NCBI GenBank assembly: GCA_048939465.1
Contig: JBHLPL010000059.1
Location: forward strand, 1 to 12,054
Direction of reading: 5' to 3'
Length of the DNA: 12,054 nucleotides
DNA from: Promethearchaeota archaeon
GTDB taxonomy: Archaea > Asgardarchaeota > Odinarchaeia > Odinarchaeales > JBHLKK01
The position numbers were made by a program, and so were the translations under genes. Below the pieces are notes generated by a model, which was not told the DNA's origin, made no database searches, and saw nothing but the letters and a program-made list of their open reading frames with translations. Position 1 is the first letter of the stretch. Every line of letters starts with the position of its first letter. Below, piece by piece: positions 309 to 11,359 of the stretch.

Positions 309-319
309 AGACGGTATGC

Positions 320-327
320 GAGGTGAT
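320..327 (+). promoter_or_regulatory. Shine-Dalgarno site GAGGTGAT for the DRG GTPase gene
   Basis: GAGGTGAT at 320-327, 3 nt before ATT-CCA-ACA-AAT-CTA-CCT-CCA (x-PTNLPP). Confidence 0.6.
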
Positions 328-330
328 AAT

Positions 331-1515
331 ATTCCAACAAATCTACCTCCAAAGGCACTGAAAGCAAAAGAAGAATATGAAGATGCAAAAAGCATAGAAA
401 CGAAGATATCGAAGTTGAAGAATTATATTAGCCAAATCCCTCGTCACATATGAAATATAAAAATAGACGAAAAGGGAACCGAAAAGCTCTTAGCTGTGCT
501 GAAAACAAAACTTGCAAGATACAAGGAAAAACTCGAGAAGCAGAAAAAAGCAAAAAAAGCAAGCAGTAGTGGCTTAAGTGTAAAGAAAGACGGGGATGCG
601 CAGATAGTCCTTGTTGGCGTGACAAACTCTGGTAAAAGCAGCCTACTTTCTATTCTGACCGGGGCAAAGGTCAAAATTGCAGACTATCCTTTTACAACTA
701 AGAACCCGGCCCCAGGTATTCTGGACTATGAAGGTGTCAAGTTGCAGATAGTTGAAGTTCCCTCCTTGTTTCGAGGTATAAGCAGTAGTAAGACAGGCCC
801 TCAGGTTCTAAGCATAATCAGAAATGCCGATGCAATACTACTGGTTATTGATTTAACACGAAATCCTTCAGAACAGATGAAAATACTATTGACTGAACTT
901 GAAGAGTCTGGAATCAAGATTAATAAGAAACCACCTCCGATCAACATCAAAAAGACAGGAATGGGCGGAATACAAATATTGGGTCTTCAATTCTATGATG
1001 GTCAAAAAGAAGACTTGATAGATCTTCTTCATGAAAGCAATATTTACAACTCCGTCATAAAAATCGAGGGGAGAATAGGGTTAGATGAAATAAGAGAGGC
1101 CCTCGATGAGAGCATCGTTTACAGATCAGCATTGGTTGCTGCAAATAAGGGAGACGGTGAGTCCTCAGCGGAGAATTACAGTAAACTCGAGAGAACGTAC
1201 AAGACTCGTTTTGATATAGTACCGGTTTCTGCTATGAAGATCATTGGATTTGCCGGACTCAAATCAAACATCTTCGATTTACTGGACATAGTTCGTATTT
1301 ACACTAAAGAGATAGGAGGTGGGGTTTCAGACAGACCTCTGATTCTTAGCAGGGGAATGACGATTGCAGACGTGGCAAAGAAGCTACATAAGCGCTTTCT
1401 AGAGAAGTTCAAGTATGCCAGAATTTTTGGCTCATCTGCAAAATTTGACGGGGAGCGTGTCGGGTTAGATCATGTTCTCAAGGATAAAGACATAGTCCAG
1501 ATATTCACCGATTGA
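331..1515 (+). CDS. drg: DRG/OBG-family GTPase with C-terminal TGS domain, interrupted by a 24-nt BHB intron (exons 331-447 and 472-1515; about 386 aa spliced; alternative start ATG 316)
   Basis: N-terminus PTNLPP...IPRH|KGTEKLL matches the archaeal DRG N-terminal pattern. G1 GVTNSGKS, G2 YPFTT, G4 NKGD, G5 SA. TGS domain IVRIYTK...TIADVAKKLH...VGLDHVLKDKDIVQI. The ORF-track pieces 256-453 and 496-1515 are in the same frame. Confidence 0.93.
448..471 (+). other. Bulge-helix-bulge (BHB) micro-intron in mRNA, 24 nt (ATATGAAATATAAAAATAGACGAA), with in-frame TGA
   Basis: Outer stem TCCCT 437-441/AGGGA 473-477; central 4-bp helix CGTC 442-445/GACG 466-469; 3-nt bulges ACA 446-448 and AAA 470-472; inner stem TAT 449-451/ATA 463-465. 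Cutting after the second nt of each bulge joins CAC|AAG (His-Lys). Confidence 0.9.
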
Positions 1516-2243
1516 TAGAGGTGTTGACCATTATTAAAGACAATAAATTATCGAATATTGTTATAATCTTCTTGGGGGCAGAGAATGAGGGGAATATTGG
1601 GGCCATCGCCAGAGCCATGAAAAATTTTGATTTGAACAAACTGGTATTGGTTGATTCCAAAGTCGAGATTGGGGACATAGCCAGAATGATGGCTATGCAC
1701 GGAGAAGATGTATTAAACAAAACTAGAAATGTTTCTTCATTAGAAGAAGCAACAAAAGATGCAGACTTCATAATTGGGACCACAGCTATATCGGGAGGAG
1801 ACTATAATATCTTGCGAGTCAGTGTTCCACCTGAAGACATGGGAGATATTGTGGGAATAAGAGGAAAGATTTGCATCATATTTGGACGCGAGAGCCGAGG
1901 ATTATCAAACGAAGAGTTAGACAGGTGCGACTCCATAATCACAGTACCTTCCAGCAGCAAATATCCGACACTCAACGTAGCTCAAGCAGCCACCATTGTC
2001 TTTTATGAGCTCTTCAAAGCGGTCCGGAGTCATAGGCATATAAAATACCGCGAGGCAGACAGAATTGAAAAGGAGAAACTTGTCGACTATTTCAAAGAGC
2101 TACTTAGGAGAACGAGTTATCCTGTTCGTAAGCAATATATTGCTTTACGCATTTTCAGGAGCATTCTTGGAAGATCCTTCATCTCCGGACGCGAGTCGCA
2201 CACCCTAATGGGAGTATTTAGACGTGCTCTGAAGATGCTGTAA
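1512..2243 (+). CDS. trmJ: SPOUT-family tRNA (C32/U32) 2'-O-methyltransferase TrmJ/LasT type (start uncertain: TTG 1512, GTG 1521 or TTG 1524)
   Basis: Motifs ENEGNIGAIARAMKNF, IIFGRESRGLSNEEL, YPTLNVAQA and the C-terminal helical extension typical of TrmJ. Confidence 0.88.
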   Translation: MIEVLTIIKDNKLSNIVIIFLGAENEGNIGAIARAMKNFDLNKLVLVDSKVEIGDIARMMAMHGEDVLNKTRNVSSLEEATKDADFIIGTTAISGGDYNILRVSVPPEDMGDIVGIRGKICIIFGRESRGLSNEELDRCDSIITVPSSSKYPTLNVAQAATIVFYELFKAVRSHRHIKYREADRIEKEKLVDYFKELLRRTSYPVRKQYIALRIFRSILGRSFISGRESHTLMGVFRRALKML

Positions 2244-6078: not shown

Positions 6079-6849
6079 TCAAGTTTCATAGCCATTGTTG
6101 ATTATTCTTCCATCCTCCATCTTCCACTCAATGTTGGCTCGGGCCCCGATTTTAGGATCGTGGGATACGATGATTACTGTCTTATCATATTCCTTGTTTA
6201 ATCTCTCGATCATATCCATAATTTCCTGGCCAGCCTTCGTGTCAAGTTCTCCTGTAAGCTCATCTCCAAGAATAATCGGAGGATTGTTGATTAGGGCTCG
6301 GGCTATCGCTACTCTTTGTCTTTCTCCCCCGCTAAGTTGACCGGGTTTGTGAAGAATTCTATCGCCTAGTCCAACGGTATTCACCAGTTCTATAGCTCGC
6401 TGTTTATCCTGTTTTCTTATTCCTCTAGGCATTATAGGAACGAGTACATTATCCAGAACATTGAGAGTCGGTATGAGATGAAACGACTGAAATACGAATC
6501 CAATTTTATCTCTTCTGAGAACTGCTAGTTTTCTTTCTGGTAAATCAGTTATGTCAACACCATCAAGACAAACTCTTCCAGACGTAGGTCTGTCTAAAGC
6601 ACTAACGATATTGAGAAGAGTGGTCTTGCCACTACCAGAAGGACCCATTATCGATATGTAATCCCCTCGACGAATACACATGTTTATGTTGTTAAGGGCT
6701 ACAACCTTTGACGTACCTAGCATGAAGATTTTGCTCACATTCTTGCATAGAACTTCGATTTTTCTTTCACAAACACCTGCAGCGGTACCTATTTCACCCA
6801 TACTGAATTCATCAGTTTTCCGTTTTGGATCAAAGCTCGTGGCAGTCAT
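6079..6849 (-). CDS. ABC transporter ATP-binding protein, LolD/MacB/FtsE-like (start ATG 6849 after SD GAGGTGA; ORF extends to GTG 6861)
   Basis: Walker A GPSGSGKT, Q-loop GFVFQSF, signature LSGGERQRVAIARAL, Walker B IILGDE, H-loop VSHD. Confidence 0.92.
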   Translation of the reverse strand: MTATSFDPKRKTDEFSMGEIGTAAGVCERKIEVLCKNVSKIFMLGTSKVVALNNINMCIRRGDYISIMGPSGSGKTTLLNIVSALDRPTSGRVCLDGVDITDLPERKLAVLRRDKIGFVFQSFHLIPTLNVLDNVLVPIMPRGIRKQDKQRAIELVNTVGLGDRILHKPGQLSGGERQRVAIARALINNPPIILGDELTGELDTKAGQEIMDMIERLNKEYDKTVIIVSHDPKIGARANIEWKMEDGRIINNGYET

Positions 6850-6853
6850 TCGA

Positions 6854-7993
6854 CTATTCACCTCTTAGAATCTTAACCGGCGATACTTTCGATGCCTTAA
6901 GGGCAGGATATATTCCGCCAATAACCCCCATTCCAATGACAAACCCAATAAGTTGTAGAAATACCTGGATTTGAAGCGGATTAAGAGCAATCACAAACAT
7001 CGTTTCTATTACTTGCAAGAAACCTACCCCGATACAAAAACCGAATACTCCGCCTATGGATGTTATTATTAGCGACTCATAGATGATGTCTTTAACAACA
7101 TCCATATTTTGCCAGCCCGTGGCTTTAAGAGTGGCAAACTCCTTCATTCGTTCCATAACACTCATCAACATAGCCACGACAATACTCATTCCCCCTGCTA
7201 TTCCAGCTATTAGAGATATTGAAAATACAAGAATATTGATCGTATCAATAAACTCAGTGAATGAGCCTAGCTGTTCATCAAATGACAGAATTTCGACCCC
7301 TAATTCCTCATCCTTCGAGATTCTTTCAATTTCTTCTTTAATGGAATCTACATTTTCAGGACTGTTGGCCTTAATTAGCAAGACGCAGTATGTGTCATCC
7401 GTGAAGTTGGCTTTGAACTGCCTTACACATCCCAAGGTTGTATAGATACTCATTTCAGAAAAGAAATCTGCTGAAAATAGCCCTACTATTGTAATATTAA
7501 CCAGCTCAAAGGTGAGTTCGTTAAAAACAGAGATTTCCTCTCCTAACTCAAAATCTAGGAAACTGGCAGCAAATCCTCCCATGACACATTCATTATCGTT
7601 GTGAAAGATCCTTCCTTCGCTTAGCTTGGAAGTCGCCCCGCCGATCACAGTATCGTTTTCCACGTTCACGCCGACAAGTGATGGCGCGATTGGGGAGCCT
7701 GCGTGCAACTGAATTGAATGAATTACCTGCGCGGAATAAGCGTCTATGTGATCTATCTGAGTTATGTTGTGTATCTCTGTCAAGTTAAATTTGCTAAAGT
7801 AATAATTTCCATTCTCCTGCTGAACTATTATTGAATCAAGGTTCTGTTGTGCAAACAACGATGTTTGACCGGTTATGCTCGCTCCAAGGGATGCCATCGC
7901 TGTCATCAACGCAATGCCGATAGCTACACCTACTACACATAAGCCTGCAATACTCTTTTTCCTGAAGGCGTTTTTCAAGGCAAATTTGAACAA
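6854..7993 (-). CDS. ABC transporter permease, MacB/FtsX/LolE-like (start probably TTG 7993 after AGGTG; ORF extends to 8017)
   Basis: N-terminal FALKNAFRKK plus a TM helix, a large extracellular domain, SVMERMKEFATLKATGW, three C-terminal TM helices and YPALKASKVSPVKILR. Confidence 0.9.
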   Translation of the reverse strand: MFKFALKNAFRKKSIAGLCVVGVAIGIALMTAMASLGASITGQTSLFAQQNLDSIIVQQENGNYYFSKFNLTEIHNITQIDHIDAYSAQVIHSIQLHAGSPIAPSLVGVNVENDTVIGGATSKLSEGRIFHNDNECVMGGFAASFLDFELGEEISVFNELTFELVNITIVGLFSADFFSEMSIYTTLGCVRQFKANFTDDTYCVLLIKANSPENVDSIKEEIERISKDEELGVEILSFDEQLGSFTEFIDTINILVFSISLIAGIAGGMSIVVAMLMSVMERMKEFATLKATGWQNMDVVKDIIYESLIITSIGGVFGFCIGVGFLQVIETMFVIALNPLQIQVFLQLIGFVIGMGVIGGIYPALKASKVSPVKILRGE

Positions 7994-10736: not shown

Positions 10737-11359
10737 GCGAAGAAGTTAAAACAGGAAACGCAGTCTTACCGGGAGACAGGCTTGGCGTCATAGAAGAATT
10801 TGTGCCAGGCAATGGAACCTATCAAGAAGATGGCGTAATTTATGCAGCTGCTGCAGGCACGATATTAATAGACATGAAGAAGAAAAAAATTGCCGTTTCT
10901 CCATACGTAAAACCAATCTTGCCAAAGAAAGGAGACATAGTTTTGGGCTCTATTGACTCAGTGGAAGGGAAAAAAGCCTTTGTCACCATTGGGATGATAG
11001 GAGAAAAAACCCTGCCATATCCGTTTTCTGGAGTAATATTCATAAGACAGGCAACCGGGCGCTTTTTGGACACAATATATGAGGCTTTTGCACCTGGAGA
11101 CATGGTTAAAGCAGTTATCATAGATGATGAAGATAATATGTATCGGCTATCAACAGCTGATGAGGATTTAGGTGTAATACGTGCTTTCTGCTCAAAATGC
11201 GGTGGAAATGTAGTTAGGGAGAAGAGAAGACTGAGATGTGTATCTTGTGGTAGCATTGAGCAAAGAAAGGTTGCAAGGGACTATATAATGACAATAGCTG
11301 ATAATCAGAAGGAGAGCAAAGAGAGGAAGAGAACGGTTAAGGAAAAAGGGAAGAAGTAA
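10733..11359 (+). CDS. csl4: Exosome complex RNA-binding protein Csl4
   Basis: VLPGDRLGVIEEF..G.GTY N-domain, S1 domain (PKKGDIV..., F.PGD.V.A), Zn ribbon CSKC..CVSC, EQRKVA. ATGA overlap with the upstream gene and SD GGAGG. Confidence 0.92.
   Translation: MSEEVKTGNAVLPGDRLGVIEEFVPGNGTYQEDGVIYAAAAGTILIDMKKKKIAVSPYVKPILPKKGDIVLGSIDSVEGKKAFVTIGMIGEKTLPYPFSGVIFIRQATGRFLDTIYEAFAPGDMVKAVIIDDEDNMYRLSTADEDLGVIRAFCSKCGGNVVREKRRLRCVSCGSIEQRKVARDYIMTIADNQKESKERKRTVKEKGKK

What the first reader, a model, noticed from the sequence alone, without database searches (positions are those of the whole stretch)
437..477. Canonical BHB micro-intron interrupting the DRG GTPase mRNA
Seen in sequence: the gene is split by a 24-nt AT-rich insertion (448-471) with an in-frame TGA (451-453). 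It falls exactly inside the conserved P-x-H-K-G-T motif (IPRH[I*NIKIDE]KGTEKLL). The flanks form a complete BHB: 5-bp outer stem TCCCT/AGGGA, 4-bp helix CGTC/GACG, two 3-nt bulges ACA and AAA on the correct strands, and a 3-bp inner stem TAT/ATA. Established: the archaeal splicing endonuclease EndA cuts after the second nt of each bulge and RtcB ligates. Applying that rule gives CGT CAC|AAG GGA, so the structure-predicted and protein-predicted boundaries agree to the nucleotide. The well-established archaeal mRNA intron is in crenarchaeal cbf5; I do not know of one reported in a DRG gene. Inference: this lineage may use tRNA-type splicing on protein-coding genes, and annotation pipelines would miss this as a split or N-truncated gene.
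Basis: partly seen in the sequence, partly recalled or inferred. Interest (0 to 1): 0.95.

Follow-up and report, generated by a model that had tools for sequence, protein, structure and literature searches.

The report
tRNA-type mini-intron in archaeal DRG gene
The gene for a ribosome-associated GTPase (DRG) in this Asgard archaeon is broken by a 24-base insert shaped exactly like a tRNA intron, and sister species carry 16- and 17-base versions that only make sense if cut out of the mRNA, which adds a new gene to the very short list of archaeal protein genes that need this kind of splicing.

Summary
Positions 448-471 interrupt a DRG/TGS GTPase gene inside its conserved P-x-H-K-G-T motif. The flanks form a canonical helix-bulge-helix-bulge-helix (BHB) fold.

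Evidence that it is a spliced intron:
- Four congeneric sequences keep identical exon flanks but carry inserts of 24, 17, 17 and 16 nt, so three of them shift the frame.
- Exon 1 is under purifying selection in all of them.
- About 400 other Asgard genomes read ...PKHKGTE... without interruption, except one distant genus with its own 31/32-nt BHB insert 2 nt away.
- Independent DNA contigs confirm the 24 nt.
- The genome encodes two EndA paralogues and RtcB. Most of its detectable tRNA genes have introns.
- At least seven other conserved genes carry similar gene-breaking mini-inserts.

Splicing by EndA/RtcB is therefore the best explanation (about 0.88). No RNA data exist, and no compensatory double changes were seen.

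The published precedents I found are cbf5 and HVO_1309, so this is a new member of a known kind.

Earlier notes of this scan report the same kind of intron in other genes and genomes. None of my four look-ups returned one in DRG.

The parts
320..327 (+). Shine-Dalgarno-like GAGGTGAT, conserved in all five genus sequences
331..447 (+). Exon 1 of the DRG gene (39 codons, IPTNLPP...IPRH). The ATT at 331-333 aligns with the Met start of orthologues. An in-frame ATG at 316 exists only in this genome. Congeners have TGA just upstream and ATT or ATC here.
437..441 (+). 5' strand of the outer helix h (TCCCT), exon 1
442..445 (+). 5' strand of the central 4-bp helix H (CGTC), exon 1
446..448 (+). 5' bulge ACA; predicted cut between 447 and 448
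   Evidence: cut rule from established knowledge. The same rule restores the orthologue sequence at four other introns of this genome.
448..471 (+). 24-nt intron. It holds the in-frame TGA (451-453), the inner helix TAT 449-451 / ATA 463-465, and the loop 452-462.
466..469 (+). 3' strand of the central helix H (GACG; GGCG in congeners, a U-A to U-G change)
470..472 (+). 3' bulge AAA; predicted cut between 471 and 472
473..477 (+). 3' strand of the outer helix h (AGGGA), exon 2
472..1515 (+). Exon 2 of the DRG gene (347 codons plus stop), with MMR_HSR1, MMR_HSR1_Xtn and TGS domains
1512..2243 (+). Downstream SpoU-family methylase gene whose start overlaps the DRG stop. Context only, probably the same transcript.

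Best explanation
Positions 448-471 are a bulge-helix-bulge (BHB) intron in the coding sequence of an archaeal DRG/Rbg1-type GTPase gene.

Proposed mechanism:
1. The pre-mRNA folds into an hBHBh' motif. Exon bases supply the outer helix and the 5' strand of the central helix. Intron bases supply the 3' strand of the central helix and the inner hairpin.
2. The host splicing endonuclease (EndA; two paralogues, probably an alpha-beta heterotetramer) cuts after the second base of each 3-nt bulge, at 447|448 and 471|472.
3. RtcB joins CAC to AAG.
4. The mature mRNA encodes a 386-aa protein that reads ...IPRHKGTEKLL....

Unspliced RNA would give only a peptide of about 41 aa.

Shown here: the fold, its exact agreement with the protein-predicted junction, the length variation and frameshifts in congeners, selection on both exons, and the presence of the enzymes.

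Inferred: cleavage and ligation in vivo.
For: (1) The canonical geometry sits at exactly the junction predicted by protein alignment. The spliced product aligns without a gap over 385 aa, at 55% identity, to the orthologue in a closed genome of the same order.

(2) Four distinct genus sequences have identical exon flanks, TCCCTCGTCAC and AAGGGA. Their inserts are 24, 17, 17 and 16 nt, so three of them put the two exons in different frames.

(3) Exon 1 has pN/pS of 0.07-0.38, against 0.14-0.18 for exon 2, with pS of 0.25-0.57. It is therefore translated in all four.

(4) The exon-1 frame ends inside the insert with TGA, TAA or TAG, depending on the species. The first possible start codon of exon 2 is not conserved (GTG, TTA, TTG, CTG).

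(5) All 27 other Asgard orthologues that I read, and the frame lengths listed in the 400-genome survey, show an uninterrupted ...PKHKGTE.... The exception is genus g20, which has its own BHB insert.

(6) Contigs from other studies cover 437-477 with no difference and no indel.

(7) The genome encodes two EndA paralogues. One is most similar to the catalytic subunit of crenarchaeal heterotetramers (3p1z_B, E = 1.5e-44). It also encodes two RtcB genes.

(8) The genome relies heavily on this splicing. ARAGORN finds 7 tRNAs without intron mode and 25 with it, 19 of them intron-bearing.

(9) A motif-free homology census finds similar 22-32-nt gene-breaking inserts in ahcY (two), class-III aminotransferase, an amidohydrolase, aIF5B, aEF-2, gatA and CTP synthase. 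Four of these, in three genes, have a 4-bp helix plus 3-nt bulges exactly at the alignment-predicted junction.
Against: - There is no RNA evidence.
- No pair in the helices shows a compensatory double change; there is one U-A to U-G change. The structure is therefore supported by conservation, and part of that conservation is forced by coding.
- The minimum-energy fold prefers a register with a 5-bp central helix by 0.3 kcal/mol.
- A strict-motif genome scan combined with an ORF-joining test was not enriched over random pseudo-introns. The motif alone does not identify introns in this genome.
Confidence: 0.88

Rival explanations
1. Split or decaying gene without splicing. The insert is a fixed lesion. 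The cell makes a roughly 41-aa N-terminal peptide and/or an N-truncated GTPase from an internal start, or nothing useful.
For: Public annotation calls a 339-aa protein from GTG 496. No RNA data show joining.
Against: Exon 1 is under purifying selection in four species, although it is out of frame with exon 2 in three of them. The internal start is not conserved (GTG, TTA, TTG, CTG). The lesion would have to sit by chance in a canonical BHB, at about 2e-6 per position and length, and keep that fold while its length changes.
Confidence: 0.06
2. Translational recoding. The ribosome reads through the TGA, shifts frame, or hops over the insert.
For: In this genome the insert is in frame with a single TGA.
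Against: Congeners would need a different event each, because their inserts are 17, 17 and 16 nt and their stops are TAA or TAG. Orthologues do not encode the extra 8 residues. No recoding signal was looked for beyond this.
Confidence: 0.04
3. Assembly or sequencing artefact.
For: The window comes from a 152-contig draft genome.
Against: Logan contigs from other studies (X5, X9, X10) cover the site identically, with no indel and no intron-less joint. X9 and X10 give pieces of equal size and may be one data set filed twice. Related but different inserts occur at the same place in four further assemblies.
Confidence: 0.01

Closest known systems
cbf5 pre-mRNA intron of Crenarchaeota (Desulfurococcales, Sulfolobales; Watanabe 2002, Yoshinari 2006, Yokobori 2009 = PMC2738675)
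   Same: - A BHB-type intron inside a coding sequence.
- The same size range: cbf5 introns are 16-44 bp, and this one is 16-24 nt.
- Length varies between species, so some copies are in frame and some are not.
- Presence or absence varies among relatives.
- The host has a two-subunit EndA.
- Annotation pipelines overlook it.
   Different: - A different host gene (a DRG GTPase, not cbf5) and a different phylum (Asgard).
- The motif here is fully canonical hBHBh', whereas the cbf5 motif is described as relaxed.
- cbf5 splicing has been shown experimentally; this one has not.
Archaeal pre-tRNA BHB introns
   Same: The geometry is identical: a 4-bp helix, two 3-nt bulges, and the same strand topology as the 37/38 tRNA intron. 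Presumably the same enzymes act on it.
   Different: The substrate is an mRNA. The exon halves of the motif must also encode protein (I-P-R-H | K-G).
HVO_1309 mRNA of Haloferax volcanii (Schwarz 2020, PMC7714728; reviewed in PMC10485636)
   Same: An mRNA cut by archaeal EndA at a BHB, with spliced reads reported.
   Different: A euryarchaeon with an alpha2 enzyme, and a different gene. I did not check whether its intron lies in the coding sequence.
HAC1/XBP1 unconventional splicing (IRE1 plus RtcB or Trl1) in eukaryotes
   Same: It works alike. A protein endonuclease cuts two loops of an mRNA structure, a tRNA ligase joins the exons, and the reading frame changes.
   Different: The endonuclease (IRE1) is unrelated and the stem-loop motif is different. 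That system is regulated by stress. No regulation is known here.

Membership tests
Archaeal BHB (EndA/RtcB-spliced) intron | [quoted passage not shown] | tested here: met
   CGTC/GACG with bulges ACA and AAA, in all four genus variants
Archaeal BHB (EndA/RtcB-spliced) intron | Flanking helices h (exon) and h' (intron) | tested here: met
   Outer helix 5 bp in all four variants. Inner helix 3 bp, or 2 bp in L069.
Archaeal BHB (EndA/RtcB-spliced) intron | Cuts after base 2 of each bulge give a functional joined product | tested here: met
   The joint CAC|AAG gives ...IPRHKGTE.... The product aligns without a gap over 385 aa to the orthologue. The frame is restored in the 16- and 17-nt variants.
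Archaeal BHB (EndA/RtcB-spliced) intron | Host encodes the splicing endonuclease and an RtcB ligase | tested here: met
   Two PF01974 genes and two PF01139 genes
Archaeal BHB (EndA/RtcB-spliced) intron | Excision and exon ligation observed in RNA (spliced transcript, circular intron) | not testable with these tools
   No RNA run was listed for this sequence
Archaeal BHB (EndA/RtcB-spliced) intron | Helices supported by compensatory changes | tested here: inconclusive
   Nine pairs, no double changes, one U-A to U-G change. Only four closely related sequences were available.
cbf5 pre-mRNA intron family | Lies in the cbf5 gene at its catalytic-residue codon | tested here: not met
   The host gene is a DRG/TGS GTPase. 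It works like the cbf5 intron but is not that intron.
DRG/Rbg1-type GTPase (host gene) | MMR_HSR1 G domain, MMR_HSR1_Xtn insert and C-terminal TGS domain | tested here: met
   Pfam E-values 2e-19, 3e-12 and 7e-14. Sources name the relatives 'ribosome-interacting GTPase 1'.
DRG/Rbg1-type GTPase (host gene) | Canonical G1, G3 and G4 nucleotide-binding motifs | tested here: inconclusive
   G1 (GVTNSGKS) and G4 (NKGD) are present. G3 reads EVPS, not DxxG. The same-order orthologue reads EVPA at that position.
Stop-codon recoding / selenocysteine | One reassigned stop codon read in frame | tested here: not met
   The stops are TGA, TAA or TAG depending on species, and three of the four inserts shift the frame

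The most novel reading that the evidence does not exclude
The DRG intron may be one member of a genome-wide population of EndA-spliced micro-introns in essential protein genes of this Asgard lineage. At least eight genes are affected, three of them translational GTPases: DRG, aEF-2 and aIF5B. The actin gene of a same-order genome may carry one too.

Two distant families have an intron 2 nt apart at the same H-K codons, while their congeners lack it. That suggests an active, site-biased way of gaining introns, such as reverse splicing into proto-BHB sites. It also opens the possibility that splicing gates the expression of translation factors.
Probability: 0.45. Interest if true: 0.9.

Novelty: new member of a known kind. 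Interest (0 to 1): 0.75.

Why it matters
A 2023 review still counts two archaeal genes spliced by the tRNA endonuclease, cbf5 and HVO_1309, and says that more probably remain to be found (PMC10485636).

- **New case.** This is a textbook-canonical example in a universally conserved translation-associated GTPase. It lies in Asgard archaea, the closest prokaryotic relatives of eukaryotes. The genome also has interrupted aEF-2, aIF5B, CTP synthase, ahcY and gatA genes, and mostly intron-bearing tRNA genes.
- **Annotation.** Such genes are annotated as truncated or split. The public protein here lacks its first 47 residues. This distorts gene catalogues and completeness estimates.
- **Evolution.** It gives a testable system for asking how protein-spliced introns spread into coding genes, and whether they are used for regulation.

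Tried and rejected
- **RNA evidence.** No RNA holder was listed for the gene in two searches, so nothing can be said about expression or splicing.
- **Strict-motif genome scan.** I combined the scan (outer helix at least 3 bp, inner at least 2 bp, length 12-120) with an ORF-joining test, with and without a codon-usage score. It was not enriched over random pseudo-introns: 1087 against 1164, and 26 against 22.7 expected. The relaxed motif is too common, and most real inserts in this genome lack a good outer helix. I replaced this scan with a motif-free homology census.
- **More close relatives.** Pattern-based scans of genome and metagenome contigs returned nothing closer than 52% identity on a best segment, and 40% for full-length matches. 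Extra genus members came from the protein-cluster look-up instead.
- **Rfam on the window.** No family reached threshold.
- **Mobile-element idea.** The insert is single-copy in the genome.
- **Short frames in the phylum survey.** G103 and G396 looked short only because their contigs end there. The breaks on C20 and C31 in the census are runs of N.
- **Census candidates left unconfirmed.** C33, C61, C119 and C142, and the two long inserts (C77, 201 nt; C101, 183 nt), were not confirmed as introns.
- **Other intron types.** Intein and group I or II intron readings are rejected on size (16-24 nt) and on the stop codons.

Full report
**Observation**

The window is contig C113 of a 1.96-Mb, 152-contig draft genome.

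Frame 1 holds a gene whose product carries the MMR_HSR1, MMR_HSR1_Xtn and TGS domains of DRG/Rbg1-type GTPases. An in-frame TGA at 451-453 breaks it.

- outer helix 437-441/473-477
- central 4-bp helix 442-445/466-469
- bulges 446-448 and 470-472
- inner helix 449-451/463-465

My own scanner recovers the insert as intron 448-471, with an outer helix of 5 bp, an inner helix of 3 bp, and no G-U pair in the central helix.

The strand topology is that of the canonical tRNA intron. The 5' bulge lies on the inner side of the central helix and the 3' bulge on the outer side.

ViennaRNA folds the 56-nt region at -9.3 kcal/mol, z = -2.7. Its register shifts the 3' bulge by one A. The canonical register costs 0.3 kcal/mol more without the inner stem, or 1.0 kcal/mol more with it.

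**Chance**

The bare motif is not rare. There are 40,228 relaxed hits in the genome, about 9e-5 per start-and-length combination.

A motif of this quality occurs about 2e-6 per combination. The protein alignment allows only two equivalent combinations, so coincidence can be dismissed.

**Comparative evidence**

This is the decisive part.

The other two species of the genus held in the genome collection, plus two Logan contigs, give four distinct versions of the locus:
- The exon flanks TCCCTCGTCAC and AAGGGA are identical in all.
- The inserts are 24, 17, 17 and 16 nt. They differ mainly in the loop.
- The 3' strand of the central helix is GACG here and GGCG elsewhere, a U-A to U-G change.
- In three versions the two exons are therefore in different frames.

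Exon 1 (39 codons) nevertheless has pN/pS of 0.07-0.38 at pS of 0.25-0.57. Exon 2 has 0.14-0.18.

The exon-1 frame ends inside the insert at TGA, TAA or TAG, depending on the species. The first candidate start codon in exon 2 is not conserved.

One removal rule explains all four versions. Readthrough, frameshifting or bypass would each need a different event per species.

Removing 448-471 and starting at ATT 331 gives a 386-aa product. It aligns without any gap over 385 residues (55% identity) to the orthologue of a closed 1,418,269-bp genome of the same order.

**Distribution**

All other Asgard-phylum orthologues that I read are uninterrupted at ...PKHKGTE....

A 400-genome survey found short frames only at contig ends, with one exception. 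In genus g20 of another family, two of four species carry a 32- or 31-nt insert. It has central helix GCAC or ACAC paired with GUGU, and two AAA bulges. The canonical cuts (CAC AA|A) restore HKSSEK.

That site is 2 nt from ours. This points to independent gains at a favoured site, or to an old intron with sliding and many losses.

**Not an artefact**

Logan contigs from other studies cover 437-477 with no difference, no indel and no intron-less joint. Two of those runs give pieces of equal size and may be one data set filed twice.

The insert is single-copy in the genome.

**Machinery and context**

The genome has two EndA paralogues of 204 and 191 aa:
- The first is most like the catalytic subunit of crenarchaeal heterotetramers.
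- The second appears, by eye, to lack the catalytic His. That reading is an inference.

There are two RtcB genes.

ARAGORN finds 7 tRNAs without intron mode and 25 with it, 19 of them intron-bearing. This fits published reports of heavily interrupted Asgard tRNA genes (PMC11291895; bioRxiv 10.64898/2026.10.13.758758).

I ran a motif-free census, using tblastn of the closed relative's ORFs against this genome. It finds 22-32-nt gene-breaking inserts in these genes:
- ahcY (two inserts)
- a class-III aminotransferase
- an amidohydrolase
- aIF5B
- aEF-2
- gatA
- CTP synthase

Pfam names for five of these genes are. ahcY and gatA are named from conserved motifs and the earlier notes.

Four of these inserts, besides the DRG one, have a 4-bp helix and 3-nt bulges exactly at the alignment-predicted junction. 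The others are relaxed.

First-stage notes on other windows of this genome describe several of the same cases. I re-derived them independently.

The DRG intron is the most canonical of the set.

**Taxon**

The nearest named relatives at 54-56% identity are labelled Odinarchaeia. One congeneric MAG was deposited as 'Candidatus Hodarchaeota archaeon'. I call the organism an Asgard archaeon of the Odinarchaeia-labelled order and go no further.

The holding samples are mangrove and sediment metagenomes.

**Literature**

cbf5 introns are 16-44 bp, vary in frame, and are patchily distributed (PMC2738675).

A 2023 review counts cbf5 and HVO_1309 as the two known cases (PMC10485636).

Four full-text searches found no report of a BHB intron in DRG, or in any Asgard protein gene. 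The library lacks many subscription papers.

Earlier AI notes of this scan describe BHB introns in other genes of other archaea. None of my four look-ups returned a note of one in DRG.

**Limits**

- There are no RNA data.
- No compensatory double changes were seen.
- There is a near-isoenergetic alternative register.
- The strict-motif genome scan had no predictive power.

**Verdict**

This is a real BHB intron and very probably spliced. It is a new member of the cbf5-type class, set in an intron-rich Asgard genome.

Noticed in passing
window 316-333; L002, L003, L068, L069 at the homologous place: The DRG start codon is probably ATT (ATC in L069), 3 nt after a conserved GAGGTGAT. Congeners have an in-frame TGA four codons upstream and no ATG, GTG or TTG before the conserved PTNLPP. 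The ATT aligns with the Met of orthologues. Only this genome has an upstream in-frame ATG, at 316.
   Followed up: partly
L025:1471-1502 (G026) and L145, reverse strand, oriented 382-412 (G136): A second Asgard family has its own 32- or 31-nt BHB intron in the DRG gene, 2 nt downstream of this site (CAC AA|A). Two congeners (G036, G137) lack it.
   Followed up: yes
G000 contigs: C4 11883-11912 (-); C24 near 7268-7334 (-), two inserts; C118 3265-3291 (-); C69 about 18515-18543 (+); C68 about 10911-10944 (+); C77 (-), oriented 7551-7582; C116 (-), just upstream of 17803: Eight further 22-32-nt inserts break seven conserved genes. Four have canonical central helix and bulges at the alignment-predicted junction: class-III aminotransferase, ahcY (two) and an amidohydrolase. 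The inserts in aIF5B, aEF-2, gatA and CTP synthase have relaxed motifs. Three translational GTPases (DRG, aEF-2, aIF5B) are hit in or before their G domains.
   Followed up: partly
L098:3634-3667 (G003:C1:535634-535667, + strand): In the closed same-order genome, the actin-family orthologue carries a 34-nt insert with a canonical hBHBh' motif: GTAC/GTAC central helix, bulges TCA and AAA, and a 5-bp outer helix. Removing it restores ...APPERMY|SVWIGGSILASL. The orthologue in this genome (C38:18287-19471; Pfam Actin, E = 4e-134) is uninterrupted there.
   Followed up: partly
G000 whole genome: ARAGORN finds only 7 tRNA genes without intron mode and 25 with it, 19 of them intron-bearing. Many tRNAs are probably still undetected.
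   Followed up: no
G000 C31:2961-5708 (-): One of the two RtcB genes lies in a 973-aa open frame. Its Pfam match is split (profile 1-57 and 45-426), as expected for an intein-like insertion.
   Followed up: no
window 730-741 (codons EVPS): The G3 motif of this DRG reads EVPS instead of DxxG. The same-order orthologue reads EVPA. G1 and G4 are canonical.
   Followed up: no
window 496-1515: The public protein for this gene is a 339-aa N-truncated call from GTG 496. Congeners are annotated the same way (339 aa, or 375 aa in a wrong upstream frame).
   Followed up: yes
G000 C77 (-), oriented 17257-17460; C101 (+) 6087-6266: Two longer inserts (about 201 and 183 nt), relative to orthologues of the closed relative, are unexplained.
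   Followed up: no
L002 and L003, about 60-110 nt upstream of the DRG start: Upstream of the gene, congeners share a conserved stretch with a hairpin (ACGAC TTAA GTCGT). It is absent from this window, whose upstream sequence is unrelated.
   Followed up: no
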